Virus record (IMG/VR): IMGVR_UViG_3300012352_000279
Coordinates: 1-29,351 of that record
Origin: a virus
Reading direction: 5' to 3' (one strand)
Length of the DNA stretch: 29,351 bases
The notes under the pieces are model-generated. The model was not told the origin of the DNA. It worked only from the letters and a program-made list of their open reading frames with translations, and searched no databases. Shown here in pieces: positions 5,086 to 20,176 of this stretch. Every line of letters begins with the position of its first letter. The first letter of the stretch is position 1. The translations under genes and the position numbers were made by a program.

Positions 5086-5591
5086 ATAAACAAAATACTA
5101 TCGTTAAATCCGTTCTCCTGTGTCTTTAATGGTTTGATGTCGCTATCTGTATTCAAGTGACTTGTAAACTGTGGGTACAAATCTTTGTAAGTGCGTAAAT
5201 AGTTAATCAAACGAACCTCATAAAATGACGCTTTTTGTGCGTAGTGGTCTTGAGCAAAAGCAACCTCGCTTTGTGTGACTGAATTAGAATAGTCTCCATT
5301 CTGAACTTGCAAACCTTTGTTTTTAAGCTGGTAACTCAATCCGAAAACTGCATCTTCAGCACTTCGCCACGCTACAATTGGCTTAATATATTCGACAAGT
5401 GTTTCCTCGTCTGTTGTTAATGTCTCAGCGTTGTACTTAGCCAATAAATATTTGTAAAAGTAAGTGCCTAAAATTGGTTGCACTCTTAAATCCGACTGAG
5501 TTCTAATGTAAGGCGTAACGTCTTTAACATCGACATTTGCTGTAATCGGTGTTTGATTTTTTAAATACGCTTCAGTTATAAAGTAATTCAT
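5082..5591 (-). CDS. hypothetical protein, possible head-tail adaptor (by position after the portal gene)
   Basis: ORF track. 1-nt overlap (TAATG) with the portal stop. No diagnostic motif. Confidence 0.3.
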   Translation of the reverse strand: MNYFITEAYLKNQTPITANVDVKDVTPYIRTQSDLRVQPILGTYFYKYLLAKYNAETLTTDEETLVEYIKPIVAWRSAEDAVFGLSYQLKNKGLQVQNGDYSNSVTQSEVAFAQDHYAQKASFYEVRLINYLRTYKDLYPQFTSHLNTDSDIKPLKTQENGFNDSILFI

Positions 5592-6928
5592 TATACAGTA
5601 GTTGTAGTTGTTATTGTTTCAGTTGCTATCTGTGATTTCGTTTTGTCGCCACCGTCTACTGGTGGTAAACTTGCTAATGCACGTACCTCATTTTCAGTCA
5701 TTGACTCAAGTACTTTTGTAGCAACCAATGGAGACATTGCGTTTAAAGCATCTGTTGTTTTCTTACCGCTACCCTCTAATTCTACGATTGTTTCATTAAC
5801 AATTTGGTAGTTATTTAGTGTGAATGTAGCTTTAATCTTAGCGATTTTAAACAAGTCGTTTACTATCTTTTCAATCTTATGGCGTTGTGGATAGATTACG
5901 TTCTTTTCAAAAATGATATACGACTGTTTGATGTCAGAACCCGAACCAAGTTTACCACTCACACGAATACCCATTAATATAGGGTCGATTGTATGCGCTT
6001 GGCATATCTTACTGTCAATGCTTTCAGTTGTTACTTGGAAAAGATTGTCGTTGTTGTTGGTTGGTATCGCTTCAATCTTAGGAAGTTGGTCTGCATTATT
6101 AGCAAAGAAACTCAAAACTTTACCGCCATTTCTTGCACCTTTTCCGCTTTCAATTGTTTTTCTTAATCCTGCTTTTTCCTCTTCGCTTTGTGGCTTTTTA
6201 GGGAACATAAAAGCAAATGACGGGAAGATAGCGTTCAAGATATTAGACTTTTGTAAGTATGACATTTCGCCATCTAAGAAAGCCCAATTAAATGCACTTG
6301 TATAACTTGGCAAAGGGTAAACGTCTTGACCTACACAGTTCTTTTCGTACACATATAAGCACTCTCTTTGGTAAATCTTACGGTCATAAGGGTAAATAGT
6401 CTCAATATCAATTTGACTCGTCCAATCGTCACAAATAAAGTATGTACATTTATCTTTTGACGTTCTAACTTTCTCCGCTCCTATGTGCTTAACACGAATT
6501 AAATCATTATTTGAGTTAAATACAAGTCTAAAATAAACACGGTTGTGTAAAATGTCGTCTTTTGTTATCTTATCTAACAACTGTTCTAAGTCTACTTTCT
6601 TTTCAAAAGCGTAAACTTCCATCTTTTCAACTGCTGTAACGCTTGAATCCGTCTTAATTTCATAACCCCCACCAATTGTAGCATTTGTTTTAAAGTCAAC
6701 TATCGCACCATGTAACGGAGACGTGTAGTAAAGTTGGTTAATTAATTGCGGGTAAAGGTTGTCTACTCCAAAACGGATATATCCGCTAACCTGTTGACGT
6801 GCATTAACGTAAGGAAGCGACAAATTTCCCTCGCCTACTTTCATAAATGGACTTGAAAACGATTGATAGTTGTTACTTTCAACGCTCACGCTTTCGCTTT
6901 TTCCAATGTTAAAACCTAAAAATTTCAT
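5591..6928 (-). CDS. portal protein
   Basis: 445 aa. LYYTSPLHGAIVDFKTNATIGGGY, PLPSYTSAFNWAFLDGEMSYLQKSNILN and GKGARNGGKVLSFF resemble PBSX/HK97-type portal motifs. Lies in the head module. Confidence 0.65.
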   Translation of the reverse strand: MKFLGFNIGKSESVSVESNNYQSFSSPFMKVGEGNLSLPYVNARQQVSGYIRFGVDNLYPQLINQLYYTSPLHGAIVDFKTNATIGGGYEIKTDSSVTAVEKMEVYAFEKKVDLEQLLDKITKDDILHNRVYFRLVFNSNNDLIRVKHIGAEKVRTSKDKCTYFICDDWTSQIDIETIYPYDRKIYQRECLYVYEKNCVGQDVYPLPSYTSAFNWAFLDGEMSYLQKSNILNAIFPSFAFMFPKKPQSEEEKAGLRKTIESGKGARNGGKVLSFFANNADQLPKIEAIPTNNNDNLFQVTTESIDSKICQAHTIDPILMGIRVSGKLGSGSDIKQSYIIFEKNVIYPQRHKIEKIVNDLFKIAKIKATFTLNNYQIVNETIVELEGSGKKTTDALNAMSPLVATKVLESMTENEVRALASLPPVDGGDKTKSQIATETITTTTTV

Positions 6929-7275
6929 TCGTAAATTGAGTTAGTTAAGACACCATCGACAACCATTCTACCCTCTTCAATTTCATGCAATCCCTCAACT
7001 GGGTTTGGCAAACTAAGATTTGGAACTGTTGCACTTTCATATACTTTATAACTGTATTGACCTATTACAAAAGTCACATCAACTCCTTCAGCTAATTCAA
7101 ATTTATTGTATCGCGGTTTAGAAGTCGACAAGTCAGGCGCATAGAAGTATATAGGTTCTGTCGCTGTGTTAAAATCGTTTTCAAACTCGAATACATAATA
7201 AGGATTACTAAGCGTTGAGCTTTCTGTAAGCGTCAAAACAATTGTGTTAAGTATATCTTTTTCAATGTATATCAT
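6925..7275 (-). CDS. hypothetical virion-module protein (116 aa)
   Basis: ORF track. Preceded by a late-promoter-like element. ATGA-coupled to the portal gene. Confidence 0.55.
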   Translation of the reverse strand: MIYIEKDILNTIVLTLTESSTLSNPYYVFEFENDFNTATEPIYFYAPDLSTSKPRYNKFELAEGVDVTFVIGQYSYKVYESATVPNLSLPNPVEGLHEIEEGRMVVDGVLTNSIYE

Positions 7276-7306
7276 AACTATAATGTTAATCTTAAAAAAA
7301 AGTTCA
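7276..7306 (-). promoter_or_regulatory. late-type bipartite element TGAAC-N15-ACATTATAGTT abutting ATG 7275
   Basis: Minus strand: TGAAC TTTTTTTTAAGATTA ACATTATAGTT ATG. TGAAC starts 1 nt after the terminator U-tract. Confidence 0.45.
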
Positions 7307-7307
7307 C

Positions 7308-7333
7308 AAAAAAAGGGAAGCTATTAACTCCCC
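7308..7333 (-). terminator. rho-independent terminator after the tail tube gene
   Basis: Minus-strand RNA: GGGGAG-UUAAUAG-CUUCCC (6 bp, one G-U) followed by UUUUUUU. Confidence 0.55.
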
Positions 7334-7354
7334 TCTCTTTATTTACAAGGTATT

Positions 7355-7864
7355 TTATGCAAGTAATCCTGCAATGATTGTTGGGTCAACTTCGTAAGCT
7401 AAGTTCTCGTTTTCTGCGATGAATGTAACAGAATATTTTGAACCGTCTGCTTTTGCTGTTCCTGAACCCTCAGCAGTTGCTGAAAGTTGAGCATAAGGGA
7501 AGTACCAAAATTTACCGTTAGCATCTTTAACGATGATAGCTAAGTCTCTTTGTCCCTCTGAAAGGATTTTTATAGCCTTAGATTTTGAAGCCTCACGTCT
7601 GTGGAACATCAAAGTAATTGTAGCTGTAACAAATGAAGAACCGTTTGCAAAGTCTACTGCTGACTCTTCGGTAAAATTACCTGTGTTACGTCTAAATTCA
7701 AATACTTCGTATGGTTCTGTGACTGTTTGAGCGTCAACCATGTAAGCAGTTTGGTCAATTGTTGGAATTCCTACGTTGTCCATATCATTAATATAGATAG
7801 CAGTAATTCCTCCGATATTGTTATCACAAGATTTTGTGATTGCTGTAATTGTTGTACATGCCAT
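7355..7864 (-). CDS. probable major tail (tube) protein (169 aa)
   Basis: N-terminal C..NIGGI..IYI and central ...IIVKDANGKFWYF... patterns resemble siphovirus tail tube proteins. The gene is bracketed by terminators, as expected for a highly expressed structural gene. Confidence 0.45.
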   Translation of the reverse strand: MACTTITAITKSCDNNIGGITAIYINDMDNVGIPTIDQTAYMVDAQTVTEPYEVFEFRRNTGNFTEESAVDFANGSSFVTATITLMFHRREASKSKAIKILSEGQRDLAIIVKDANGKFWYFPYAQLSATAEGSGTAKADGSKYSVTFIAENENLAYEVDPTIIAGLLA

Positions 7865-7880
7865 GGGTTTAAAATTTTAT

Positions 7881-7912
7881 AAAAAAAGGAGGGAAGAATT
7901 AACCGCCCTCCC
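7881..7912 (-). terminator. rho-independent terminator after the capsid gene (symmetrical A7/T6 flanks, potentially bidirectional)
   Basis: GGAGGG (7888-7893) pairs with CCCTCC (7906-7911) around a 12-nt loop. Flanked by an A7 run on one side and a T6 run on the other. Confidence 0.6.
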
Positions 7913-7935
7913 GTTTTTTAAGTTAATAATTATTA

Positions 7936-8853
7936 TTATGAGTAAAGAACGATTTCAGTTGGGTTAACGTAAGAGAAACCTACTTTCAAGTTTGCACGTG
8001 AACGTAAGTAAGGCTCTGCAACTGTATCAGCTAAGTTAACTGCTTTGATTGCTTTTCCGTCTCCCTCGCCATCGAAAGCGTAAATCATGTTATTTTTAAC
8101 AGTCGCTACCATGTGGTTGCTTGGCATACCCTCAGCTACAACAACTTTAATACCTAAGAAAGTCAAAGCTAATGGAGTTGTAATGTATGTTTGAGTGTTA
8201 CCTGAAGCTGTAGCCAATTCTAAAGCGTTAGCAACATTCGAAGCAACGTATAAACGTAAGTCTGCTTTTTTACGAGAAACTGTTGACGGTAAAGCGTTGA
8301 TTACTTTTACGATTTCAGCGATAACGTTAGAACTTGTAATTGTAGCTTTTGCTACGTCGATGATTGCTGTATCAGCTTTCATTTTTTTAATGTAACCATC
8401 ACACAAAGCCAAAGTATCATCTTCGCTTGCTGTGTCTCCTTGCCAACGTAACAACTCAACGTCTTCGCCAATTTGTTTCGCCATTTCTCCCCAGTAGAAG
8501 TTCATGAAAGAAGCTACTGAAAAATCTCCGTTTGAACCTTGAGCCATTTGCAAAGCTAAGAAAGACTGCTCTAAGTCGAATTGACAAAGTTGAGCCATTG
8601 CTGACAATGCACATACGTCGATGTCTACTGCGTCTAATGAATCAGTTGGTGCTGTAAAGTTACAAGTTGATGCTTGTAAGATGTTACCAAAAGTAACGTT
8701 TGCTAATTTAGTAGCACTTTTAATTCCTGGCAAAGTACGGTAGTTGTCTACTGTATCTTCAGCTAAGTAAGAACGACCGTAAAACTCGTTCGGGTTTGGA
8801 CACAATAATGCGTTTGTTTCGATGTCCAAGTCAAATTTTAAATTTCTTTCCAT
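7936..8853 (-). CDS. major capsid protein (HK97-fold type)
   Basis: 305 aa. Immediately downstream of the protease/scaffold gene and followed by a strong terminator. Its composition and pattern look like phage capsid-family proteins. Confidence 0.65.
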   Translation of the reverse strand: MERNLKFDLDIETNALLCPNPNEFYGRSYLAEDTVDNYRTLPGIKSATKLANVTFGNILQASTCNFTAPTDSLDAVDIDVCALSAMAQLCQFDLEQSFLALQMAQGSNGDFSVASFMNFYWGEMAKQIGEDVELLRWQGDTASEDDTLALCDGYIKKMKADTAIIDVAKATITSSNVIAEIVKVINALPSTVSRKKADLRLYVASNVANALELATASGNTQTYITTPLALTFLGIKVVVAEGMPSNHMVATVKNNMIYAFDGEGDGKAIKAVNLADTVAEPYLRSRANLKVGFSYVNPTEIVLYS

Positions 8854-8857
8854 TTTG

Positions 8858-9835
8858 TTATTTTTTAGAAAATGCGTCTCTGAACGCGTTAAATTTTTCG
8901 TGAGCTGATAATTTAGTTTCTTTTAATTCCTCTTCGATAGGCTCAACTTCTACTTCTAAAGAATTTTTTAATTCTGCAATTACTTGCAACAATTCGTTAA
9001 CTTTTTCGTCTAACAAAGGTGTAACGATAGCTAAAATAGCCTCAGCGTCTGCTGTTGGGTCGACTGCCATTTCAACTTCTTCAGTTGCGACTTCTTCCTC
9101 AACAACTTCCTCAGTTGCCATTTCTTCTTCTACTACTTCTTCTTCGATTACTTCAGTTGCCATTTCTTCCTCTACTACTTCCGTAGCAGGCGCATCTAAT
9201 ACCTCGATAACTTCCCCGCCTTTTACAACGTAGATTTTACCTTCGATTAAGTGCTCTCCATCTGGTAACTTCATACTATATTGATTATTTAATTCCGTCT
9301 TTTGTTCGTTCAATTTCATGCCTAAGAAACCTTCAATCGAAAACCCTACTTGGTTACTCTTTACAAGTTCATTGTAGTAATCTTCGTCAGTTACTTGAGC
9401 GGTCAACATTAAAGTACCTTTTGGTACGTCAATACCGTACGCTTTCGCTTTGTCGTTTTTAGGGTCTTGAACTATCCACGCTTCTAATACATAAGCAGGA
9501 ACTTTGTTTTCCGCATCATGCTCAATGTTAAAAATATCTTTGTTAGATAAATTTGACATAAACTTAGCGTGTATCTTTTCAATCTCTTCGGCTGTAAATG
9601 ATACAAAGTACTCTTCACCCTCGTCGTTTCTATAAATCTCCATAGGAATCATAGCAGGTGCAACGATACGCATTTTAACCTCGTCAGCAAAGTACATTTG
9701 TTCATGTGAATTGAACGCTACTCCTTTAACTTTAACCGCAGGACGTGACGTAAAGGCAATCATTTCGATTCCTAAGTCTTCGCCCTCGCTATATTCAGGG
9801 TCAATAGTAATTTTGTAAGTAGGCAATTTATCCAT
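8858..9835 (-). CDS. XkdF-like prohead protease fused to an acidic scaffold-like C-terminal domain
   Basis: The N-terminal ~180 aa (FTAEEIEKIHAKFM...FNIEHD...VGFSIEG) resembles the XkdF/Peptidase_S78_2 family. The C-terminal third is an E/V-rich repeat plus a helical tail. Confidence 0.5.
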   Translation of the reverse strand: MDKLPTYKITIDPEYSEGEDLGIEMIAFTSRPAVKVKGVAFNSHEQMYFADEVKMRIVAPAMIPMEIYRNDEGEEYFVSFTAEEIEKIHAKFMSNLSNKDIFNIEHDAENKVPAYVLEAWIVQDPKNDKAKAYGIDVPKGTLMLTAQVTDEDYYNELVKSNQVGFSIEGFLGMKLNEQKTELNNQYSMKLPDGEHLIEGKIYVVKGGEVIEVLDAPATEVVEEEMATEVIEEEVVEEEMATEEVVEEEVATEEVEMAVDPTADAEAILAIVTPLLDEKVNELLQVIAELKNSLEVEVEPIEEELKETKLSAHEKFNAFRDAFSKK

Positions 9836-9867
9836 ACTTATTATGTAGATATAAAATTATTTGTTCA
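9836..9867 (-). promoter_or_regulatory. late-type bipartite element TGAAC-N16-ACATAATAAGT abutting ATG 9835
   Basis: Minus strand: TGAAC AAATAATTTTATATCT ACATAATAAGT ATG. Confidence 0.45.
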
Positions 9868-9874
9868 AAAATTG

Positions 9875-9882
9875 TATATTTG
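9875..9882 (+). promoter_or_regulatory. host-type -7 box TATATTTG for the plus-strand gene pair
   Basis: Identical to the -7 box of the three minus-strand early promoters. It ends 15 nt before ATG 9898. No good -33 element at the usual spacing. Confidence 0.4.
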
Positions 9883-9897
9883 TTAAAAAATTAGTAT

Positions 9898-10440
9898 ATG
9901 GTAACAATTGGAAAAAATGAAATCCCTAACAAGTCAACTGAGTTGAGCGTTAAGCAATTTTCAAAAGTGAATGAAATTTTAAGAAGTGAAAACGAACCTA
10001 TTGAAAAATGGTATCAAATTTTTACGTACTTAGGAGCGGACGAAAGCGACATTAACGACCTAGAATTTGACGAGTTCAAAGAGGTTGTTCGTCTTTTTAA
10101 CGATAGCGAAAGTAAGGACTTAGAAATTCAACGCACTATTGAAATTGACGGATACACTTACGAAGCGTACAAAGAAGAGTTTAAGGTGTCAGTAAAAGAC
10201 TTGAAAGCAATTGAGAAATTAATCGCTAAGAATCCAAACTCTTATATTGCTGAAATGGTTGCGGTGTTATATAAGCGTACCGACTTAACAGAAAAAGAAC
10301 ACTACGAACCTGCACACATCAAACACAAAACTACTTTGTTTGCTGACCAAAAGGCTTCGTTTGCTTTACCTATCATTTGGCACGTTGCTAAAAAAATGAC
10401 GAATGAAATAGAAAAAGCTGAAGATGAAAGCGTGGAATAA
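9898..10440 (+). CDS. acidic hypothetical protein A (180 aa); tail-assembly-chaperone-like or accessory protein
   Basis: Long ORF on the otherwise empty strand. By my count it has 37 D/E versus 25 K/R. Shares its motif order with the next ORF. Confidence 0.6.
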   Translation: MVTIGKNEIPNKSTELSVKQFSKVNEILRSENEPIEKWYQIFTYLGADESDINDLEFDEFKEVVRLFNDSESKDLEIQRTIEIDGYTYEAYKEEFKVSVKDLKAIEKLIAKNPNSYIAEMVAVLYKRTDLTEKEHYEPAHIKHKTTLFADQKASFALPIIWHVAKKMTNEIEKAEDESVE

Positions 10441-11143
10441 TGTAACAGTCGAAACATTCATGGAGTTAAGGGGGTTGGAAACAATCCCTTTTGATTCTCC
10501 TTTTGATTTGGAACTTGAGAGGCTGTCAATCTTAACCGATACCGACATAGAAGAGTTGCAAAATTTAGACCTATCCGAGTTTAGTAAGTTAACAAAAGAG
10601 TATGCTTGGGTAAAATCCGCACCCGCAAAGAACTTTAAACAAGAAATAAACGGGTTTCACTTTAAAGAATGGTACACGCTCGGGGAGTTTATCGACTTAA
10701 ACCATCTATTTGAAAACGAAGCGCAAAACTTTGACAAGATTCTAAGCATTTTATACCGAGTTTTTAAGCAAGACGAATGGGGCAACCGTGTTTTTGAACC
10801 TTTACACTTTGACTTAGAACAACGCAAACATGAATTTAAAGACGTTTTAATCAATGATTGCTTTGGTGGTGTGGTTTTCTTTGTTGAGTTTAGGGATAAC
10901 TTCTTAAAAGTTTACGAAAATCTGTTTAATCCTGTTGTTGAAAGTGACGAATTAGAAGATAATGACTTAGACCAAGAAGATATAAAAGCCGAAGAAGAGG
11001 AAAAGAAACTATCTAAGTTTAGCTGGGAACGTTTAATATTTGATTTGAGCGGTGGGGATTTGACAAAGGTAGACCAACTTACTGACCTACCTATTATCTT
11101 AGTGTTTAATATGCTTTCAATGAAGCAAACTTACGGAATTTAA
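10424..11143 (+). CDS. acidic hypothetical protein B (239 aa), distant paralogue of protein A
   Basis: Overlaps A by 17 nt. Shared motif order: (L/V)(S/T)V..F ; L(E/D)(F/L)(D/S)EF ; EI(D/N)G(Y/F)x(Y/F) ; (V/L)(A/S)(V/I)LY(K/R). Has an extra acidic stretch (ESDELEDNDLDQEDIKAEEEE). Confidence 0.6.
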   Translation: MKAWNNVTVETFMELRGLETIPFDSPFDLELERLSILTDTDIEELQNLDLSEFSKLTKEYAWVKSAPAKNFKQEINGFHFKEWYTLGEFIDLNHLFENEAQNFDKILSILYRVFKQDEWGNRVFEPLHFDLEQRKHEFKDVLINDCFGGVVFFVEFRDNFLKVYENLFNPVVESDELEDNDLDQEDIKAEEEEKKLSKFSWERLIFDLSGGDLTKVDQLTDLPIILVFNMLSMKQTYGI

Positions 11144-11580
11144 AAGAACGGTGTTTGTGGTGCTTTCGGTAAATTCGGGTAAGGACTATCTATCCAATTG
11201 AATTGAATACTAACTTTAGGGTTATTAAGTATTCGAGCCATTTCCAAAAGAGGGTATTTCTTAAACTGCCATGCGATATATTCCTGAGTTACTTCAGCAA
11301 GAATAGCCTGTACATCGCTACGTCTTAACCAACTATCTGTTATTGAATAAGGCGGTATCATTTGTTCGCCATCTCTTTCTGTTCCCTCATCTAAAAACAA
11401 ATAGTAAAACATAGCATTAATCGTCATGTTAATCGTGTTTAATTCGTCCCCTGTCATTGCTGAAATTCTAATCGAATCATATAACGCACCATCAGCATAC
11501 AACCCAAGCGATAAAATCTCTTGCTGTAATGCTCTCGCTAACTTGTTTCTTGTAGCGTATTGAACTTTAAAATTTGCCAT
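11140..11580 (-). CDS. HK97 gp10-like neck/tail-completion protein
   Basis: YADGALYDSIRIS ... FYYLFLDEGT resembles the DTGxLxxSI ... Y.xxxE.GT signature of the HK97 gp10 family. Confidence 0.4.
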   Translation of the reverse strand: MANFKVQYATRNKLARALQQEILSLGLYADGALYDSIRISAMTGDELNTINMTINAMFYYLFLDEGTERDGEQMIPPYSITDSWLRRSDVQAILAEVTQEYIAWQFKKYPLLEMARILNNPKVSIQFNWIDSPYPNLPKAPQTPFF

Positions 11581-11582
11581 GT

Positions 11583-12026
11583 TTAATCTCCTATCTCAAA
11601 TGGTATATCCTCAACACAGTATTGGTCAACTTCAAACGTGATGCTCATTTGCCACCCCGCTACGTAATCTAAATCAAAGTTATTGACTGGGATTAACGTA
11701 GGTGCTTGAGCGTCTATGCTTAAATCTGACCCTTGACTGAAGTACAAATATAAGTCATTTAAAATTAAATTCGTATCACTTAAAATAGTGTTTATATTAG
11801 CACGGTCTTTTTGTATAATATCCACACAATAAATATCCATAGCAAAGATATTCGTATTTTCTCCCATCGTTTGACTAATAGGAACGTAAAAAAGCAAAGG
11901 ATACTTTTCGTCTAAGGTGCTAAAGTTTGGCATCTGTTCTCTGAACTCCCCCGCGTTTTTCTTAATCTGTAAATGTTGTTGACAAAACCCGTCAATCGCA
12001 TTTAATAGTTTTATGTAGCTTGTCAT
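11583..12026 (-). CDS. hypothetical structural protein (147 aa)
   Basis: ORF track. ATGA-coupled to the tape measure gene. Confidence 0.5.
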   Translation of the reverse strand: MTSYIKLLNAIDGFCQQHLQIKKNAGEFREQMPNFSTLDEKYPLLFYVPISQTMGENTNIFAMDIYCVDIIQKDRANINTILSDTNLILNDLYLYFSQGSDLSIDAQAPTLIPVNNFDLDYVAGWQMSITFEVDQYCVEDIPFEIGD

Positions 12027-14080
12027 AGTGTAGAACCTAAATCGATTATTTTCATTTTATTTTGTGTCGCTGTAATTTCAGTTTCACTTACAACCGCTTG
12101 TACTGTTACCGTTTGATTTGATTGCATTGATTGACCTGTTAAATTGTTCGCGTTGTTTCCTTGTCCAAACATATTAATTGACGGTGTAGCTACCGAAGCA
12201 CTTGAGGCACTTGCTGAAGTACCGCCACCACCACCCGAAGCCGAAGCACTCGGATTACTTAATAATGCTTTAGCCTTTGCTACGTTCGTTAAGATTTGAA
12301 CGATACCCGAAGCGTATTGTGCTATTCCTGCTGTTCCACCAGTTACCGCATTTAATGGGTTTGCTTGAGACATTGCAACGAGTGAACTAATAGCCTTTGC
12401 TGTATCGATTGCGATTTGAACTAAAGCAGTAGCCTTTTGGAATTTCTCAAGTTTCTTTTGGTCATTTATGAATATTTTACCAAGTTGATTAATACCGTCA
12501 TTAACTTCAGTTGCAAAATTTAATAAAGCATCACGTTTATTTTTTGCTTGTTCAATACTTTGTAAAGCGTATTTCTTTTGAATGTCAGCAGTTTCTTTTG
12601 CTATTTGGTCTTCGATTGCTTTTGTATCTTCCCCGTATTTTTTAGCTTCTTCTAATAGTGTAAAATATTTGTCGCGTACTGCGTTAATCTCCCTATCTTC
12701 TGCTGAAAGTTGAGCGTCTGCTATTGCTGTTTGTTGTGCTTCGTAACGTGCTAAAAACTCGTTATATGTTTCTTGTTCTTTTATTTTAGCTTCTTGAATA
12801 CGTGCGTCTTCTTTCGCCTTTTTGTCGGCTTCTATTTTATCAGTCTCAGCTTGTTGTTGTGTCTCAAGTTGTTTAATGATTATAGCTTTTTCACTTGCTA
12901 AATATTTCTCGTTCTTTTGAGTTTCCTCAATTGCACGTTTGTACTTTAAGTTTATAGTTGCTATTTCTTTTGCTTCGCCATCTGCCATTATAGCGATGTT
13001 CGCATCTTCAATCATTCGAGCAACTTCCTCACGATTCTTTGCGTATTCTTTTTGCGCTTCAATTCGTTTTTTATTAGCCTCTTTTCCAGCATCAACACTT
13101 TTCTTATGCGCTTCGTCCTCAGTTTTTTGAGCATCAACAACGTGTTTCTTTTTAATGTACTGTATTTCATTGTTTGAAGTAGTCATTAAAGTACGTTGTT
13201 CTTTTAGTTTCGCCTTTAAGTCTGCGACCTCTTTAGCGTCATAGTCTCCCGAAGCTACCATATTTTGGATTCGCATTTGGTAAGCCTTTGCATAAGCGTA
13301 AGCCGTCGCTTTAATCAACCGTTGTTTTTCAAGTTCTAACTTGTAAGTGCTTTTACCCTCAAGTTGAGCCATTCTTATTTCTTGGTCGATTGCTCCTATT
13401 CTTTTATCTGAAGCATCTTTGTAAGCATCTGCTTTTTTCTCTTGTGCTTGCATTGACCTTTCTGCGGCTTCCTCTTCAGCAAATGAAGTTAAGCCTAACC
13501 AATCTAAAAAGTCTTTGATATTTTGAATTACAACTTCGATAGCATCGCCAATTGCTCCAAAGAAATCGCCTATCGCTTTTAATACGGGTTTAAGTAGTCC
13601 GAGTTTAGACATTAATGCCACAATGATAGCAACGATACCCGCAATGATAGCACCGATTATAAAGATTGGATTTGTTAAAAGTGTAGCACCAAACGAAACG
13701 AAAGCCTTTGCCATCGTTCCAACAATAGAAATTAAACCTTTTAATTGTGTGCCTATTTCTTGAGGTGTAATTGACTTTAAGTTTTTTGCAAATAATTTAG
13801 CCGAAGTTGACGCACCTTCAAAATCCAAGTCTCTAATCTGTGACCCCATTAAGCCTAAAGCATTGCTTGTACTTTCAAACTTTGAACCGGTTGAAAATAC
13901 TGCTACTTGTTCATTAGCATCTTTTAGTCTATCGTTTAATTCCCCCGCTCTTTGTGCAAGTTGTTGCATTTGTTCGGGGTCTGTAGCACTTGCTAACTCT
14001 CCTTTTATTTCTCGTATTTCCTTTTTAAGTTGCTGAAGCCCGCCTAACTTAATTGGAATTTCTATTGCTTGTTGTGCCAT
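12023..14080 (-). CDS. tail tape measure protein
   Basis: 685 aa with the usual tape-measure layout: N-terminal coiled coil, hydrophobic Gly-zipper segments (IFIIGAIIAGIVAIIVALM, GDFFGAIGDAIE), a long K/E/A-rich coiled coil and a G/S/A-rich C-terminus. Confidence 0.65.
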   Translation of the reverse strand: MAQQAIEIPIKLGGLQQLKKEIREIKGELASATDPEQMQQLAQRAGELNDRLKDANEQVAVFSTGSKFESTSNALGLMGSQIRDLDFEGASTSAKLFAKNLKSITPQEIGTQLKGLISIVGTMAKAFVSFGATLLTNPIFIIGAIIAGIVAIIVALMSKLGLLKPVLKAIGDFFGAIGDAIEVVIQNIKDFLDWLGLTSFAEEEAAERSMQAQEKKADAYKDASDKRIGAIDQEIRMAQLEGKSTYKLELEKQRLIKATAYAYAKAYQMRIQNMVASGDYDAKEVADLKAKLKEQRTLMTTSNNEIQYIKKKHVVDAQKTEDEAHKKSVDAGKEANKKRIEAQKEYAKNREEVARMIEDANIAIMADGEAKEIATINLKYKRAIEETQKNEKYLASEKAIIIKQLETQQQAETDKIEADKKAKEDARIQEAKIKEQETYNEFLARYEAQQTAIADAQLSAEDREINAVRDKYFTLLEEAKKYGEDTKAIEDQIAKETADIQKKYALQSIEQAKNKRDALLNFATEVNDGINQLGKIFINDQKKLEKFQKATALVQIAIDTAKAISSLVAMSQANPLNAVTGGTAGIAQYASGIVQILTNVAKAKALLSNPSASASGGGGGTSASASSASVATPSINMFGQGNNANNLTGQSMQSNQTVTVQAVVSETEITATQNKMKIIDLGSTL

Positions 14081-14112
14081 ACTTATAATGTATAGTAAAA
14101 ATTAAATGTACA
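14081..14112 (-). promoter_or_regulatory. late-type bipartite element TGTAC-N16-ACATTATAAGT abutting ATG 14080
   Basis: Minus strand: TGTAC ATTTAATTTTTACTAT ACATTATAAGT ATG. The -35-like part overlaps the last codons of the 890-aa gene. Confidence 0.4.
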
Positions 14113-16774
14113 ACGTAACTGTAATTATAAAGCTACGCGTGTAATCACTTGGTAAAACGTCGTTTTCAGACGTGCTACTTTTGTAAGTATTAATAAATAG
14201 GTTATCTCCCTCACAGTAATACTCTACAAAGTCTTTATCTAAAATTCCGTTCGTGTTTTCAATGCTATAAACTACATTCTCAAACGAATCAGTAATTCCG
14301 TAATCCTCAAGGCTAAAACCTGATAAAGCATATTCGCCTTTATCAATGTAACTTGGTGTGATATTAAATCCTAAAGTATTAATCAACTCCACAACCTCAG
14401 GCGCATTAGTTCCGCTTTGTGTTAGCTTAGCTACATATACCTCTTTGTTAAGTTGTGGCACACCGTTAATTACATTCGCTGTAATTGATTTTACGACACT
14501 TTCGCCATCGTTTGCAGTTTGTCCTATTTCTCCAGTTACAGAACCGCCACCGCTTACCACATTGTTGTTGTTAAAGAACTTGTCAATAACATCGCCTATT
14601 ACTTGAGTAGTTCCCGTGTAAGGTTGTTTAGGTTTTGTCTTGAATGGTGGTAAGTCTACTTCGTCGTCAATTGTTAAAAGTTCAACTTTCGTTAATTGGT
14701 TCGTGTTTGCGTTGTAGTCATTTATTGAATTAATAGACCACCAACTGTTATTAATACGTATTTTATCATTCAACTTTAGATTAGCTATGTCATTCGCTCT
14801 TAAATCAAAATAAGCGGTTAACATTTTACCTTTGTTAATTTGGTTTACTGTACGTCTCCAATAAATATTATAAAGGTTATTCGCTGTTAGGCTTAACGGA
14901 TTGTAAAAGTAATAGTCACACGTTGCGTAATTAATGTCAAATGTAGGTGTTAACGGATTGTCGAAGTGTGTAGCGTATGAATAGTGGTTATCTTCTACCG
15001 TACTACCTACGTAATTCTCAATGATATAATTAGCAGTAGAAGTAGTCAACTCCCCATCGTACAAAATACGTATGTTAGTGTTAGGACTTGCACCGCTCAA
15101 TGCAGGAACATAAGCACCAAAAGTGGTTTTTAAAATTGGTGTCGGACTAAATGTTAACTCTTTGCGCTCTTCGTCTTTGATGTATTCGTTGTCAAAAGTA
15201 AAAGATACTTGACCGTAAACCTCGTTAATCTGAGCAAAGTAAGTTTTATTAATATCGTCCGAATCCTGCTTATATGAAAGTGTTAATTTCTTTTTTGTTA
15301 ACTCAGGCAAGAATGTAATTGATTGCTCACGGTCTTTTGCGAGTTTCTTAGTCCAATCCTTAACCGCTCCGCTATCGTAGTAATTATCACGTGTGATTAG
15401 TATTAAGTTATTCGGGTTTGTTGGGTCAATGTCAACGTATAAATTGTACATATTGAATATCGACTTAATAAAATCCGATTGACGAATCTTTTTAGGTACG
15501 TAAAAATTGACGTCAACTGTTGAGTTGTATCCTGTAATATTGGAACTTGGTGTTAATGTAGCTTCGAATCCTGTAACATTCCAACCAATAGCAACGTTGT
15601 AAGAAGTACCCGAACGCTCAAACAAACCCGTAACACCACAACCTAAATCCAATTTGAATGTAATATCGTCCGTAGTTACTAAGTTGCTTAAATTGACAGT
15701 CGTTAAGATTGACGCTGTGTGTATTGTAGTTGTACCCGTTGCAAGTGTACCCGAATATGTGTAAGTATCTAAAACGATATTTTGTTGCAACACACCGTTT
15801 TTAAATACTTTTAAGCGTGTTTGGTAAATAGCTTGACCACTTTGCCCACCTTGAGTAACTATGTTTAAAATACCCCCACTTGAATTGGTTAGCTTTATAT
15901 TGTAAGTTATCGGAATAGACACCTCAATACTTTCGCCACTCCCTAAATTGAAAGGACTGTTATATACGCCTGTTGTTGGGTCGAATAAGTTATAGTTATC
16001 CTGTGTTTCAGTTACCCCAGTTAAAGGCTCTGACAATCCCGTAGACGCGTTAAAACTTGAATGAGTACCACTTACTGTAAATGCTTTATTGAATATTACG
16101 TTATAAGGACTAAAATCCGTTTTATTAACGTCTCCATTAAAAGGAATTAACAACCTTTCAAAGCGTTCGTTTGCTATTGTCGCCCATGAATAACTAAACC
16201 CAGCACGCGCGAAAATTCTATCGAAGTATTCCTTTGCAAAGATAGCAGGTTTAAACTCTTTTAGTGGGTAAGTGTTTAACGGTGCATACGGTAAAATGTA
16301 CTTATACTTATCCGTGTTTGAGAAGGTATTGATAACCTCATCGGCTGTGAGTAAGTGGTTAAAGTCGCTGAAGTCTAAATCAGTCAACTCAGAACTTCCC
16401 AACTTTGTAAAGAAATCACTTTGCGAATCCTTAACGATTACGCTGTATTCTACGTCCTGCTCAAAGTTGCTTGTAGATTGTAGTTTGTTTACCGCTATCA
16501 ATTGTAAGTAAGCATCTTCAACGATTGGAATTTCGTCTTGTAATACCGTGCAACGTGTTAATGCATTTATGTTAAACGTACCTGTTTGAATGTTAATGTC
16601 GTATAAATGACCTAACAATTGATTGTTGTTGTCGTCCCCTACTAAAGTAATCGTTTTTGAAAATGTACCTTTTCGCGTACTTACATCACGAATATCGGAA
16701 ACCTTAAACGTAATTGGAAAGTTTGACGTGTCCTTTACATTTAGGTATCCGTTTTCTATTTGTATCTTAACCAT
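14102..16774 (-). CDS. large tail/baseplate structural protein (890 aa)
   Basis: Largest ORF. N/T/S/Y-rich, beta-type composition. Adjacent to the tape measure gene. No catalytic motif recognised. Confidence 0.45.
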   Translation of the reverse strand: MVKIQIENGYLNVKDTSNFPITFKVSDIRDVSTRKGTFSKTITLVGDDNNNQLLGHLYDINIQTGTFNINALTRCTVLQDEIPIVEDAYLQLIAVNKLQSTSNFEQDVEYSVIVKDSQSDFFTKLGSSELTDLDFSDFNHLLTADEVINTFSNTDKYKYILPYAPLNTYPLKEFKPAIFAKEYFDRIFARAGFSYSWATIANERFERLLIPFNGDVNKTDFSPYNVIFNKAFTVSGTHSSFNASTGLSEPLTGVTETQDNYNLFDPTTGVYNSPFNLGSGESIEVSIPITYNIKLTNSSGGILNIVTQGGQSGQAIYQTRLKVFKNGVLQQNIVLDTYTYSGTLATGTTTIHTASILTTVNLSNLVTTDDITFKLDLGCGVTGLFERSGTSYNVAIGWNVTGFEATLTPSSNITGYNSTVDVNFYVPKKIRQSDFIKSIFNMYNLYVDIDPTNPNNLILITRDNYYDSGAVKDWTKKLAKDREQSITFLPELTKKKLTLSYKQDSDDINKTYFAQINEVYGQVSFTFDNEYIKDEERKELTFSPTPILKTTFGAYVPALSGASPNTNIRILYDGELTTSTANYIIENYVGSTVEDNHYSYATHFDNPLTPTFDINYATCDYYFYNPLSLTANNLYNIYWRRTVNQINKGKMLTAYFDLRANDIANLKLNDKIRINNSWWSINSINDYNANTNQLTKVELLTIDDEVDLPPFKTKPKQPYTGTTQVIGDVIDKFFNNNNVVSGGGSVTGEIGQTANDGESVVKSITANVINGVPQLNKEVYVAKLTQSGTNAPEVVELINTLGFNITPSYIDKGEYALSGFSLEDYGITDSFENVVYSIENTNGILDKDFVEYYCEGDNLFINTYKSSTSENDVLPSDYTRSFIITVTLYI

Positions 16775-18257
16775 TGATTGCGTTTTGATTTGCTAATTTA
16801 ACAGTTAGCTTTTGCTTAATAAGGTTCTTATTCTTTTGTTTAAAGACTTCGAATGAATTATCTTGTACTAAACAAGCAAAGTATTGACCGTTTACTTTTA
16901 AGTACGTCTGAGGGCTTGTAATTAGTTCCTCGAAATAGATAGCCATTGCCTCGCTCATGTAGTTAGTATTGAGTTCGATTGTCTTTTCAACTTTCGTGTT
17001 TAAATAGGTCATTCCAAAGTCGCTTGTTTCATATCCCCATTTACCGTCTGTGACTGCTCCTTGAATGTCACGGTTATAACTGTCACGTGTGACGTTGCCT
17101 TTGTCGTATGCTCTCAACTGAAAAGCAAAAGAACTAAACGACCCCATGCGGTCTAAGAACAAAATCTCGTAATCTTCAATCTTACAACGTCTATCGATAC
17201 AAACATTGTAAACCTCGCTGTATTCAGTTACTAAGTCGTTGTTAACAAATTGGAATGTGTACCATTCTGTATCGTCTTTGATTAGTCCTGCCGTTCCTGA
17301 AATTACTGTACTCGGATTTGCTGAAGCTCCTACGTTAACCATGCTTGTAACATCGTCATTTGTTAGGTTGTAAACCAACTCATCTCCGTTGCTATTTACA
17401 AATAGAATCGAACCGTTTGTAATGTAGTTATTTGCCAAAGATAAATACAAGTCCTGAGTTGGCGTGATACAGAAACCGTCTAAAGGTTGGTTTGTTAAGA
17501 ACTTAACCGTACTTGTGAGAACTGAATCCAAACATTGTAACGCTTCAAATGTGCCACCGTCTGCGATTACTCTGTCGTAAAACTCCAAATTAAATTGATT
17601 GCTCAAATAATTGTAACTTGAATACGTTGTAAAGTCTGCGAAACTTTGCGCACCATTAAACACTACCATGTCATCGAGTGTGATAATGTCAGTGTCAACC
17701 GTCTTTTGGTTGTTTGCATATCTTACCGTCCCATCAATTGACGTACTTGTCACATCTGAATAAGCTGAATTAACAATGATATAGCCTGAGCCTTGACCTA
17801 TTACAGTAAAATAGCCTTGTAGGTTTGGATTTGCTACCCCCCCATCTGCTTGGTCAATATAAACTTGGTCGCCTATAACAAACGGATTTGTAAACGTAAT
17901 TTTTACGTTACCGCTGTCAGACGTTAAACTACTCGTGTAAGCGTAGCTCTCGACGTACTCTTCGCCTACCTTTAGAAAGTATTTAAAGTTCGTGTTTAAA
18001 GCAGTCCCGAAGTTAGGAAACAAAGGATTGAAATCGTTTGTAACGTAAGATTGTAAAATACGCGATAGGTCAATGTTACCGTATCCGTTTGGATAGTCAG
18101 GCAACACTTTAAATTCTCCTATTTTTGCGCTTGTCGTTGCATTGTAAAGCGTGAATATATACTTAAATCCGTCTTTGTTTTTGTTAGTCGAATCGTATAT
18201 AAAACGCAATTGGTTAAATGCAGGACTAAAACTGTATGGAACTGCTATGGTATTCAT
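16767..18257 (-). CDS. tail structural protein (496 aa)
   Basis: ORF track. Lies in the fibre/baseplate block. 8-nt overlap with the downstream gene. Confidence 0.4.
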   Translation of the reverse strand: MNTIAVPYSFSPAFNQLRFIYDSTNKNKDGFKYIFTLYNATTSAKIGEFKVLPDYPNGYGNIDLSRILQSYVTNDFNPLFPNFGTALNTNFKYFLKVGEEYVESYAYTSSLTSDSGNVKITFTNPFVIGDQVYIDQADGGVANPNLQGYFTVIGQGSGYIIVNSAYSDVTSTSIDGTVRYANNQKTVDTDIITLDDMVVFNGAQSFADFTTYSSYNYLSNQFNLEFYDRVIADGGTFEALQCLDSVLTSTVKFLTNQPLDGFCITPTQDLYLSLANNYITNGSILFVNSNGDELVYNLTNDDVTSMVNVGASANPSTVISGTAGLIKDDTEWYTFQFVNNDLVTEYSEVYNVCIDRRCKIEDYEILFLDRMGSFSSFAFQLRAYDKGNVTRDSYNRDIQGAVTDGKWGYETSDFGMTYLNTKVEKTIELNTNYMSEAMAIYFEELITSPQTYLKVNGQYFACLVQDNSFEVFKQKNKNLIKQKLTVKLANQNAING

Positions 18258-18550
18258 GCGAATAAGTGTTTCGGATTGTTTGGTGTTATTGCGTTATCGA
18301 ACTCAATCTCTAAGTCAGTCATAACGTCAACGTGGTAGCCTTTCAAGTACGTAGCCTCTTTGATTACTTTCATGTCCTCAACTACTGCGGGAGTGTCTAC
18401 TATTTTACCTATGTAAACTACTGCGTGAGTACTTTGTGCGTACGTGTTAATCTCGTTACCCTCTTTATCAGTTGTGTTAATCAAAACGCCTTTAGATAAT
18501 AAATCAGTAATTGCGCTATCGTGGTCGGTGTATATTAGTTTGTAAATCAT
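18254..18550 (-). CDS. hypothetical protein (98 aa) in the tail-fibre block
   Basis: ORF track. ATGA overlaps at both ends. Confidence 0.55.
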   Translation of the reverse strand: MIYKLIYTDHDSAITDLLSKGVLINTTDKEGNEINTYAQSTHAVVYIGKIVDTPAVVEDMKVIKEATYLKGYHVDVMTDLEIEFDNAITPNNPKHLFA

Positions 18551-19779: not shown

Positions 19780-20144
19780 ATTTCTAAATTATTTAATGTT
19801 TGTACTAAGCAATTTTCAGCTTCAATCGTTCCGCTATCTGTTGCTATTCGTGTTTTAAAAGTGTTAATCAATGTCATCGTTGCGCCAATCTCAGACGCTA
19901 AAGCCTCAATCCAAGAACCGTTTACAGTACCGGTAGCACCAAAGTCCTCAGCTAAAGCCTGTATAAAACTTTCGCCCAAGTCTACGTTGGCATCGAAGTA
20001 AGTACACAACGCTTGTTGATAGTTTCCGTTTTCAGCTACAATGCCAAAGTGACCCGCTATCGTTTGCCACCAATCGCCATTCGTAGTCGTTTCTCCTAAC
20101 ACGTTTGCAATTTCTTGCACCCAATTTTTAAAAGTGTTTTCCAT
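19776..20144 (-). CDS. repeat-containing fibre-associated protein (122 aa)
   Basis: About five tandem ~17-aa repeats of the form (W/F)x(Q/E)x(I/L)Axxx(G)xxxxNG(D/S/N). First gene after a late-type element. Confidence 0.5.
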   Translation of the reverse strand: MENTFKNWVQEIANVLGETTTNGDWWQTIAGHFGIVAENGNYQQALCTYFDANVDLGESFIQALAEDFGATGTVNGSWIEALASEIGATMTLINTFKTRIATDSGTIEAENCLVQTLNNLEI

Positions 20145-20176
20145 ACTTATAATGTGTTCAAATTTTGTTTAGTTCA
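20145..20176 (-). promoter_or_regulatory. late-type bipartite element TGAAC-N16-ACATTATAAGT abutting ATG 20144
   Basis: Minus strand, directly after the TerL TAA: TGAAC TAAACAAAATTTGAAC ACATTATAAGT ATG. Confidence 0.45.

What the first reader, a model, noticed from the sequence alone, without database searches (positions are those of the whole stretch)
9836..11143. The only opposite-strand genes are an overlapping pair of acidic paralogues with an early-type promoter, embedded in the late structural module
Seen:
- Every other gene is on the minus strand. ORFs 9898-10440 and 10424-11143 are on the plus strand, between the neck genes and the scaffold gene.
- They overlap by 17 nt and are both strongly acidic.
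- They share an ordered set of motifs: V..F ; L(E/D)x(D/S)EF ; EI(D/N)G(Y/F)x(Y/F) ; xxLY(K/R). This points to an old tandem duplication.
- Their only upstream signal is TATATTTG (9875-9882), identical to the -7 box of the three early promoters.
- That box lies 7 bp from the -35-like TGAAC (9863-9867) of the divergent late element, so the two promoters overlap physically.

Inference, two readings:
(a) They are the tail assembly chaperones. An overlapping acidic pair beside the tape measure block fits that role, and no other candidate is visible. Their inverted orientation would then be very unusual.
(b) They are an early-expressed accessory cassette, for example a DNA-mimic type anti-restriction or takeover function. 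Late in infection it would be silenced by promoter occlusion and by antisense transcription coming from the tape-measure unit.
Basis: partly seen in the sequence, partly recalled or inferred. Interest (0 to 1): 0.68.

Follow-up and report, generated by a model that had tools for sequence, protein, structure and literature searches.

The report
Inverted split tail chaperone gene pair
The two opposite-strand genes are most likely this phage's tail assembly chaperones, encoded as two duplicated genes (a short and a long form) instead of one gene read in two frames, and flipped onto their own host-type promoter: a new variant of a known theme, not an anti-defence cassette.

Summary
ORFs 9898-10440 (A, 180 aa) and 10424-11143 (B, 239 aa) are the only plus-strand genes, and they overlap by 17 nt. 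They are distant paralogues (hhalign 96.6%, E 7e-10). A Bacteroidetes-type -7 box, TATATTTG, lies 23 nt upstream of A's ATG (box start to ATG) and keeps that position in relatives.

The pair is a core gene pair of a large group of uncultured ~30 kb Bacteroidetes siphophages. It is not an accessory cassette. In a sister clade it is co-oriented and starts at the stop codon of the tape measure gene.

In a third clade, which includes cultured Nonlabens phage P12024S (gp38/gp39), there is a single gene with a conserved T9/T10 run. At that run the reading frame splits into two conserved C-termini. B aligns end to end with the shifted long product (99.6%, E 6e-24).

This short-form/long-form logic is the hallmark of tail assembly chaperones such as lambda gpG/gpGT. 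In the window it is hard-wired by duplication, and the cassette was then inverted.

No sequence or fold match to known chaperones, Ocr or ArdA was found, so the function is inferred and not shown. A two-gene precedent without a frameshift exists in T4-like phages. Confidence in the chaperone reading is about 0.7 and interest is moderate.

The parts
9898..10440 (+). Gene A, 180 aa, pI 4.9. Short-form paralogue made of the core domain only (helices plus two beta-hairpins).
   Evidence: ORF. 20 homologues were found. AF2 model pLDDT 87.7. hhalign against the B family gives 96.6%. Against the clade-3 short forms it aligns 163 columns through the recoding site.
10424..11143 (+). Gene B, 239 aa, pI 4.4. 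Long-form paralogue: core domain (aa 1-168, nt 10424-10927), disordered acidic linker (aa ~169-198, nt 10928-11017) and a small helical C-terminal domain (aa 199-239, nt 11018-11140).
   Evidence: ORF. 193 homologues were found. AF2 model pLDDT 82.7, with pLDDT below 50 in 171-182 and 193-198. It is colinear with the clade-3 frameshift fusion products over 228 columns, E 6e-24.
10874..10891 (+). Site in B (GTT TTC TTT GTT GAG TTT, coding VFFVEF) homologous to the T9/T10 recoding site of relatives. The T-run is interrupted here, so the long form is hard-wired.
   Evidence: Alignment and sequence. None of 75 distinct B genes has a T-run longer than 5 at this site.
10424..10440 (+). 17-nt overlap of A's end with B's start. 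B is in the +1 frame, which suggests translational coupling or occlusion.
   Evidence: Overlaps of 11-65 nt occur in 62 of 67 distinct relatives.
9875..9882 (+). TATATTTG, a Bacteroidetes-type -7 promoter box. Its first base lies 23 nt upstream of A's ATG.
   Evidence: A TAnnTTTG box keeps this position in 62 of 71 relatives.
9836..9897 (.). Divergent intergenic region shared by gene A and the protease/scaffold gene.
9833..9868 (-). Late-type element of the protease/scaffold gene: TTGAAC, 17 nt, CATAAT, 4 nt, ATG. It overlaps the A promoter region.
8858..9835 (-). XkdF-type prohead protease with a C-terminal scaffold-like part. It is the divergent neighbour of A.
   Evidence: Pfam Peptidase_S78_2, E 1e-10. 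PHROG protease hits.
11140..11580 (-). w146, a 146-aa conserved small protein. It converges on B and overlaps it by 4 nt (11140-11143). It is homologous to p118 of clade 2 and weakly resembles the tail-completion-like gp42 of P12024S.
   Evidence: hhalign w146 against p118 gives 94.7%; against gp42 it gives 13%. No terminator is predicted.
12023..14080 (-). Tape measure protein, 685 aa, the presumed client of the chaperones. Its start carries the late element (14078-14091).
   Evidence: 14 of 20 family members hit tape measure PHROGs, best E 4.7e-16. Late element.

Best explanation
A and B are the phage's tail assembly chaperones, the functional counterpart of lambda gpG and gpGT. They belong to a previously unannotated protein family of Bacteroidetes siphophages.

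**What relatives do.** The family is a single gene whose reading frame splits at a T9/T10 run. This gives a short product and a long product, and the long one carries an extra C-terminal domain.

**What happened in the window's lineage.**
- The gene was duplicated and each copy became fixed in one form.
- A is the short form: the core domain only.
- B is the long form: core, acidic linker and C-terminal domain.
- The two-gene cassette was later inverted in place. It is now read from its own host-type (TAnnTTTG) promoter, divergent from the protease/scaffold gene and convergent with the tape-measure transcription unit.

**Inferred mechanism, by analogy with gpG/gpGT.** The core domains coat the tape measure protein. 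The C-terminal domain of B recruits the tail tube protein. The A:B ratio is now set by the overlapping stop/start arrangement instead of by recoding efficiency.

**Shown:** paralogy, homology to the recoded gene, synteny, the inversion and the conserved promoter box.

**Inferred:** chaperone activity, binding partners, stoichiometry and timing.
For: 1. **A and B are paralogues.** hhalign gives 96.6%, E 6.8e-10.
2. **Relatives recode a single gene.**
   - In 36 of 36 analysed loci of the P12024S-like clade (16 representative loci, protein identity 23-58% among the 11 aligned), one gene carries an in-frame T_TTT_TTT run, followed by the near-invariant ATCATTTAGGnAACGACTT.
   - The -1 frame encodes a conserved long tail (SFRxRL...KWGWY...). 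The 0 frame encodes a conserved short tail (YHLGNDL...DLKISLN).
   - Variants with T10 have the long form in frame 0 and keep the short tail in the +1 frame.
3. **B matches the whole fusion product.** It is colinear across the recoding site and the C-terminal domain: 99.6%, E 6.1e-24, 228 columns. P12024S gp39 is the counterpart of B's C-terminal domain.
4. **B is hard-wired.** None of 75 distinct B genes has a T-run longer than 5 at that site.
5. **The phage has a tape measure protein.** 14 of 20 family members hit tape measure PHROGs. In the co-oriented sister clade the pair starts at the tape measure gene's stop codon and precedes the protease gene.
6. **A and B always occur together.** 87 of 87 loci.
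7. **The AF2 models fit.** A is a compact helical core. B is the same core plus a disordered acidic linker and a small helical domain.
8. **No other candidate.** The window holds no other recoded or small acidic candidate next to the tape measure gene.
9. **Precedent.** T4-like phages carry a short gene plus a long fused gene instead of a frameshift (Vladimirov et al. 2022, as described in PMC10274946).
Against: - **No detectable homology to any annotated chaperone family.**
  - Pfam and PHROGs give nothing for A, B or their relatives. The relatives' own PHROGs (32199 and 38404) are 'unknown function'.
  - PDB sequence searches give nothing.
  - Foldseek of both models against the PDB gives no hit below E 0.35.
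- **The position is not canonical.** It is never between a tail tube gene and the tape measure gene. It lies after the tape measure gene in clade 2, two genes away and inverted in the window, right after the large terminase in clade 3, and far from the tape measure gene in L004-type genomes.
- **The tail tube protein was not identified**.
- **The link between A and the short recoded form is weak.** The hhalign score is the same against short and long forms.
- **No expression or binding data exist.**
Confidence: 0.7

Rival explanations
1. A and B are a two-isoform morphogenetic factor with some other role, for example a head-assembly or scaffold helper, a portal- or terminase-associated factor, or a neck assembly factor. 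In that case the short/long logic merely resembles gpG/gpGT.
For: - In clades 1 and 2 the pair lies immediately upstream of the protease/scaffold and capsid genes.
- In clade 3 the single gene directly follows the large terminase gene.
- There is no homology to known tail chaperones.
- B has an acidic helical body plus a small C-terminal domain, which also recalls scaffolding proteins.
Against: - A scaffold function is already provided by the C-terminal half of the XkdF-type protease gene.
- To my knowledge, a conserved recoding that gives a short and a long isoform of a small helical protein in a long-tailed phage's structural module is described only for tail chaperones (Xu et al. 2004, as cited).
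- In clade 3 the gene heads the tail gene block, and in clade 2 it is coupled to the tape measure gene.
Confidence: 0.17
2. A and B are virion structural proteins of the tail or neck, such as a terminator, completion protein or adaptor, and not chaperones.
For: - They lie among small, unassigned structural genes: w146, w116, DUF6712 and w169.
- Several canonical neck and tail functions are still unassigned in this genome.
Against: - The predicted folds are mainly helical with a disordered acidic linker. They match no tail or neck structure in the PDB.
- A short/long isoform design is not a known feature of neck proteins.
Confidence: 0.08
3. A and B are an early-expressed accessory cassette, such as a DNA-mimic anti-restriction or host-takeover function, inserted into the late module.
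For: - Opposite strand.
- Own conserved host-type -7 box, identical to the boxes upstream of the replication/recombination genes.
- Acidic proteins.
Against: - It is a core gene pair, present and syntenic in every relative (87 of 87 loci).
- It is co-oriented and co-transcribed with tail genes in two sister clades.
- It is homologous to a recoded structural-module gene.
- Its G+C content equals the genome's.
- Its acidity is no greater than that of the other structural proteins.
- Foldseek finds no Ocr or ArdA match.
Confidence: 0.03

Closest known systems
Lambda gpG/gpGT and the conserved frameshifted tail assembly chaperone genes of long-tailed phages (Xu, Hendrix and Duda 2004)
   Same: - There are two products that share an N-terminal domain, and the long one has an added C-terminal domain.
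- In relatives the two products arise by recoding at a slippery homopolymer.
- The proteins are small and acidic.
- The gene lies in the tail module of a phage that has a tape measure protein.
   Different: - No sequence or fold similarity was detected.
- The gene is not located between the tail tube and tape measure genes.
- In the window the two forms are separate paralogous genes, on the opposite strand, with their own promoter.
- In relatives the short form also has its own conserved ~55-aa tail, and T9 and T10 alleles both occur. That fits transcriptional slippage as well as ribosomal -1 frameshifting.
Tail assembly chaperones of T4-like phages (Vladimirov, Gautam and Davidson 2022, Virology 566:9; known here only through PMC10274946 and PMC12846349)
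   Same: The short and long forms are provided by one short gene plus one longer fused gene, not by a frameshift. A poly-T motif lies at the end of the short part.
   Different: - That group is myoviruses with a different protein family.
- The genes there are not reported as inverted or as having their own host-type promoter.
- I could not read the original paper.
Nonlabens (Persicivirga) phage P12024S gp38 and gp39 (PHROG 32199 and 38404, 'unknown function')
   Same: - They are true homologues. Foldseek of the B model against gp38 gives E 2.3e-6.
- gp39 corresponds to B's C-terminal domain.
- The overall genome layout is the same, and the host is a Bacteroidetes bacterium.
   Different: - They are one recoded gene (a T9 run at 23579, with gp39 in the -1 frame), annotated as two hypothetical proteins.
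- The gene is placed right after the large terminase gene and is co-oriented with its neighbours.
DNA-mimic anti-restriction proteins Ocr and ArdA
   Same: They are acidic, and the pair may be read from a host-type promoter.
   Different: - There is no fold match.
- The pair is a core structural-module gene pair, not a variable early gene.

Membership tests
Tail assembly chaperones (gpG/gpGT type) | Two products with a common N-terminal part, the longer one extended by a second domain | tested here: met
   A (core only) and B (core plus linker plus C-terminal domain) are paralogues. B is colinear with the long recoded product of relatives.
Tail assembly chaperones (gpG/gpGT type) | The long form is made by programmed recoding at a slippery sequence near the end of the short ORF | tested here: not met
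   In the window the site is GTTTTCTTTGTT, which is not slippery, and the two forms are separate genes. The feature is met in homologues: a conserved T9/T10 run with both alternative tails conserved. This is sequence evidence only.
Tail assembly chaperones (gpG/gpGT type) | Gene lies immediately upstream of the tape measure gene, downstream of the tail tube gene | tested here: not met
   The window order is tape measure, w147, w146, then the inverted pair. In clade 2 the pair lies directly downstream of the tape measure gene. In clade 3 the gene lies after the large terminase gene.
Tail assembly chaperones (gpG/gpGT type) | The phage has a long tail with a tape measure protein and no other chaperone candidate | tested here: met
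   The 12023-14080 family hits tape measure PHROGs in 14 of 20 members. No other recoded or small candidate gene is present. P12024S is listed under Caudoviricetes, but its tail morphology was not checked here.
Tail assembly chaperones (gpG/gpGT type) | Sequence or fold similarity to a described chaperone family (Pfam Phage_TAC families, PHROG chaperone families, solved structures) | tested here: not met
   Pfam and PHROGs give no consistent hit. None of the 260 listed homologues has a precomputed Pfam domain. PDB sequence searches and Foldseek are negative. One BFVD 'tail assembly chaperone' hit has E 0.83 and is not significant.
Tail assembly chaperones (gpG/gpGT type) | Binds the tape measure protein (core) and the tail tube protein (C-terminal domain); absent from virions | not testable with these tools
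   This needs co-expression or pull-down experiments and virion proteomics. No complex prediction was available.
DNA-mimic anti-restriction proteins (Ocr, ArdA) | Fold that mimics B-form DNA | tested here: not met
   Foldseek of both confident models against the PDB gives no hit at E <= 0.001, and no Ocr or ArdA entry appears in the lists.
DNA-mimic anti-restriction proteins (Ocr, ArdA) | Variable, early, accessory gene outside the structural module | tested here: not met
   The pair is core and syntenic inside the structural module in three clades. Only the host-type promoter box fits this feature.

The most novel reading that the evidence does not exclude
The inversion may be a timing device and not a neutral rearrangement. 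The chaperone pair would be read from a host-type promoter from early infection and so pre-load the cell. It would then be throttled late in two ways: by head-on transcription from the tape-measure unit, which runs into B with no terminator, and by occlusion from the overlapping late promoter of the protease gene. Chaperone supply and the A:B ratio would then be set by transcription interference and start/stop overlap instead of by recoding. Together with the T9/T10 alleles of relatives, the family would offer three natural solutions to the same stoichiometry problem.
Probability: 0.2. Interest if true: 0.7.

Novelty: new variant of a known kind. Interest (0 to 1): 0.55.

Why it matters
- **Annotation.** It gives a testable function to a very large unannotated protein family. 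At least 6,191 proteins match the profile. The family includes PHROGs 32199 and 38404 and gp38/gp39 of a cultured marine phage. It would fill the 'missing tail chaperone' gap in Bacteroidetes siphophages.
- **Recoding.** It offers a natural series for that field: a single gene recoded at T9, T10 alleles with the opposite frame as default, and duplicated hard-wired genes. This shows how a recoding-based stoichiometry device can be replaced by gene duplication, in parallel to what is reported for T4-like phages.
- **Gene finding.** In these genomes a chaperone gene can lie away from the tape measure gene and even on the opposite strand.

Tried and rejected
**Searches that gave nothing useful**
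- Megablast and tblastn of the region and of A and B against 50,697 phage records gave no match. With clade-3 queries, only P12024S/L appear.
- Pfam, PHROGs and PDB sequence searches for A, B and their families gave only chance hits. One example is T4 holin 6pxe at E 0.06, rejected after reading the alignment.
- Foldseek against the PDB for both models gave nothing.
- Profile searches of w496, w890, the tape measure family and w169 against the PDB gave nothing. The tail tube protein therefore stays unidentified.

**Ideas considered and dropped**
- A conserved RNA structure downstream of the T-run: none found, only 4 invariant pairs and no covariation.
- A frameshift joining A to B in the window: rejected. 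B is in the +1 frame, and the overlap length varies from 11 to 65 nt or is absent.
- The second, inverted pair in L001/L090: attributed to chimeric contigs, because other clade-2 contigs lack it.
- 'Hard-wired long forms' in low-coverage long-read contigs such as L169 (T11): not trusted. The T10 alleles L173 and L174 were taken as real, but that is less certain than for the T9 loci.
- T9 runs apparently 'in A': these were artefacts of start-codon calling in the promoter region.

**Not used**
- The search of protein representatives, because it returns no annotation or context and its top 150 would all be close family members.
Full report
**The observation**

The window is a ~29 kb phage genome segment with 34.6% G+C. 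Every substantial non-overlapped ORF is on the minus strand except 9898-10440 (A, 180 aa) and 10424-11143 (B, 239 aa).

On the minus strand the gene order, with the evidence for each assignment, is:
- small terminase, 21306-21725 (Pfam GP3_package);
- large terminase, 20177-21325;
- a fibre module, 18254-20144;
- a 496-aa protein and an 890-aa protein;
- a 685-aa tape measure protein, 12023-14080;
- two small genes of 147 and 146 aa;
- the inverted pair;
- an XkdF-type protease/scaffold gene, 8858-9835;
- the capsid gene, 7936-8853;
- two small genes, then the portal gene, 5591-6928;
- DUF6712, a holin-like gene, an exonuclease and an M23 peptidase.

A and B overlap by 17 nt. They are acidic (pI 4.9 and 4.4), but so are nearly all structural proteins here, with pI 4.0-4.9. 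Acidity is therefore not a distinguishing mark.

**Paralogy**

BLASTP between A and B finds nothing. Alignments of their families were built from 193 homologues of B and 20 of A. Compared as profiles, the two families match with probability 96.6%, E 6.8e-10, over 173 columns. The old tandem duplication is real.

**Promoter signals**

- TATATTTG lies at 9875-9882, its first base 23 nt upstream of A's ATG. The window holds six exact copies against 2.55 expected.
- Three minus-strand copies lie in intergenic DNA directly upstream of minus-strand genes of the replication/recombination region and of a small gene near the lysis end.
- A TAnnTTTG box lies 20-25 nt upstream of A's start in 62 of 71 distinct upstream regions of relatives, although the rest of the spacer has diverged. 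This is the Bacteroidetes -7 consensus (my knowledge).
- The -33 TTTG is not at consensus spacing here.
- The divergent protease gene carries TTGAAC-N17-CATAAT-N4-ATG. Its core ACATTATAAGTATG recurs at the starts of four late genes, including the tape measure gene, against 0.58 expected.

**Who carries the pair**

Nothing similar exists among 50,697 deposited phage genomes at the DNA or protein level. The capsid and portal proteins are only 20-25% identical to those of cultured phages.

In metagenomes the pair is common. At least 473 viral contigs encode a B relative. All 87 loci I hold that carry B also carry A immediately upstream. Genome sizes are about 29-30 kb. The only hit in reference genomes is a Bacteroidetes metagenome-assembled genome.

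In this clade ('clade 1') the pair is always inverted. It lies between the 146-aa gene's homologue and the protease gene.

**A sister clade shows the pair is ancestral to the structural module**

A contig held a second, diverged copy of the pair. Using it as a query retrieved 17 loci of a 'clade 2'. Nine were mapped. The longer ones are fully colinear:
- small terminase, large terminase, p118, p496, p974;
- tape measure (p643);
- A' (188 aa), B' (239 aa);
- protease/scaffold, capsid, p185, p116, portal, DUF6712, fibres.

In clade 2 the pair is co-oriented with everything else. A' starts at the tape measure gene's stop codon. The window's arrangement is therefore a simple in-place inversion of the two-gene cassette.

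The 685-aa family is a tape measure family: 14 of 20 members hit tape measure PHROGs, best E 4.7e-16.

**The key link: a recoded single gene in a third clade**

- AF2 models are confident: B has pLDDT 82.7 and A has 87.7. A is a compact core of helices with two beta-hairpins. B is the same core, a disordered acidic linker (about 171-198) and a small helical C-terminal domain.
- Foldseek against the PDB finds nothing for either model.
- Foldseek against predicted viral structures finds 36 uncharacterised proteins. One is gp38 of the cultured Nonlabens (Persicivirga) phage P12024S, at E 2.3e-6.
- In P12024S, gp38 (175 aa) directly follows the large terminase. It is followed by gp39 (55 aa), which carries the KWSW motif of B's C-terminal domain and lies in the -1 frame.
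- 63 viral contigs carry relatives of gp38. In all 36 loci analysed, the gene has an in-frame T_TTT_TTT at codon ~150-185, as part of a T9 run. Sixteen representative loci were examined in detail. The 11 that were aligned are 23-58% identical to P12024S gp38 at the protein level.
- The run is followed by the almost invariant ATCATTTAGGnAACGACTT, while the flanks are highly diverged.
- From that point both frames are conserved as protein. The -1 frame gives ...FFLSFRxRL...KWGWY..., the long form of about 231-269 aa. The 0 frame gives ...FFYHLGNDL...DLKISLN, the short form of 167-248 aa.
- Two contigs carry a T10 run. There the long form is in frame 0, and the short tail, still ending in DLKISLN, is open in the +1 frame.
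- No conserved downstream RNA structure was found.
- This pattern calls for recoding at the homopolymer. The mechanism could be -1 ribosomal frameshifting or transcriptional slippage, and I cannot tell which.

**B is the long form, hard-wired**

- The B family profile aligns end to end with the conceptual fusion products: 99.6%, E 6.1e-24, 228 columns. The alignment runs straight through the recoding site (FFLSFRERL against EYxKFRxNF) and the C-terminal domain.
- At the homologous site the window's B reads GTT TTC TTT GTT GAG TTT. None of 75 distinct B genes of clades 1 and 2 has a T-run longer than 5 there.
- A is the more diverged copy. Against the fusions it scores 90%, E 1.5e-6.
- Against the short forms A aligns over 163 columns, through the site (IIWHVAKKM against FFYHLGNDL). 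The score is no better than against the long forms, so 'A equals the short form' is suggestive only.

**Interpretation**

To my knowledge, a small acidic helical protein made in a short and a C-terminally extended long form, by recoding, in the tail region of a long-tailed phage, is described only for tail assembly chaperones. These are lambda gpG/gpGT and their analogues (Xu et al. 2004, as cited).

The best explanation is that A and B are the chaperone pair of this phage. The single recoded gene has been replaced by two hard-wired paralogues, and the cassette was then inverted under its own host-type promoter.

There is a precedent for the two-gene solution. [quoted passage not shown] 2022). 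Poly-T motifs are known at such sites (PMC12846349). Chaperone genes in atypical positions are an acknowledged annotation problem (PMC12859696).

**Limits**

- The family has no detectable sequence or fold relation to any described chaperone family. None of the 260 listed homologues has a precomputed Pfam domain.
- The position is never the canonical one between the tube and tape measure genes.
- I could not identify the tube protein. The best guess is the highly conserved, terminator-flanked 7355-7864 gene.
- Chaperone activity, partners, stoichiometry and timing are all inferred.
- I put 0.7 on the chaperone reading, 0.17 on another two-isoform morphogenetic role, 0.08 on a virion structural role and 0.03 on the accessory or anti-restriction reading.
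- The anti-restriction reading is contradicted by the core, syntenic status of the pair in three clades, its native G+C content and the lack of any DNA-mimic fold.

**What the inversion may do (inference only)**

The cassette is squeezed between two late units. The tape-measure unit starts at the late element at 14078-14091 and ends in the 146-aa gene. That gene overlaps B's stop by 4 nt, and no terminator is predicted. The protease unit has a late element that overlaps A's promoter region.

Expression from a host-type promoter could supply chaperones ahead of their clients. Late head-on transcription could then damp it.

B's start lies inside A's 3' end in 62 of 67 distinct relatives, with overlaps of 11-65 nt. 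That could keep B below A, the role played by low recoding efficiency elsewhere. None of this was testable here.

**Verdict**

The finding is a new variant of a known kind:
- an unannotated chaperone-like family with at least 6,191 members;
- three natural expression designs, namely T9 recoding, T10 recoding and duplicated genes;
- an unusual inverted cassette with its own promoter in the window's lineage.

Interest is moderate, at 0.55.

Noticed in passing
window 20142-20155, 14078-14091, 9833-9846, 7273-7286 (minus strand): A conserved element, ACATTATAAGTATG, ends in the start codon of four late genes: w122, tape measure, protease/scaffold and w116. That is 4 hits against 0.58 expected. At two of these genes TTGAAC lies 17 nt upstream. 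It looks like a sigma-70-like late promoter that would start transcripts at or next to the ATG, giving leaderless late mRNAs.
   Followed up: partly
window 22156-22704 (minus strand): A 182-aa ORF just upstream of the terminase genes has weak C-terminal helix-turn-helix hits (UPF0122/YlxM E 0.005, HTH_11). P12024S gp33, in a similar position, is annotated with Sigma-70 region 2. This ORF is a candidate phage-encoded late transcription factor for the element above.
   Followed up: partly
L007 (Nonlabens phage P12024S) 23136-23830; also L106-L168, L173, L174: gp38 and gp39, annotated as two hypothetical proteins, appear to be one recoded gene. It has a T9 run at 23579-23587, both alternative C-termini are conserved across relatives, and T10 alleles with the opposite default frame exist. 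The downstream 19 nt are almost invariant, but no RNA structure was detected.
   Followed up: yes
window 7276-7354 and 7865-7935; gene 7355-7864: G+C-rich hairpins followed by T-runs flank the 169-aa gene downstream of the capsid gene. This gene is the best-conserved small structural gene (64-86% identity within clade 1). It matches only PHROG 19091, 'unknown function'. It is a candidate major tail (tube) or decoration protein.
   Followed up: partly
L004-L006 versus window and L002: The tape measure gene and the fibre genes occupy different places in closely related genomes. They lie after the 890-aa gene in the window, and after portal-DUF6712 in L004-L006. So the tail genes are shuffled as modules in this phage group.
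   Followed up: partly
L001 (GCA_043533415.1 contig, 63.8 kb) and L090 (IMG/VR 33.4 kb contig): These contigs contain two complete head modules and both a co-oriented and an inverted A/B pair, joined at a shared fibre module (213-591-99-144 aa). Other contigs of the same clade lack the second set. They are probably chimeric assemblies of two co-occurring phages.
   Followed up: partly
window 11140-11143: Gene B and the convergent 146-aa gene overlap by 4 nt at their stop codons, and no terminator is predicted between them. The same tail-to-tail overlap, of 4-12 nt, is seen in relatives L001 and L004.
   Followed up: no
window 14102-16774 and 16767-18257 (minus strand): Two large, well-conserved proteins of 890 and 496 aa lie between the terminase/fibre genes and the tape measure gene. 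They have no Pfam, PHROG or PDB sequence match. They are presumably tail tip, hub or tube components of an undescribed type.
   Followed up: partly
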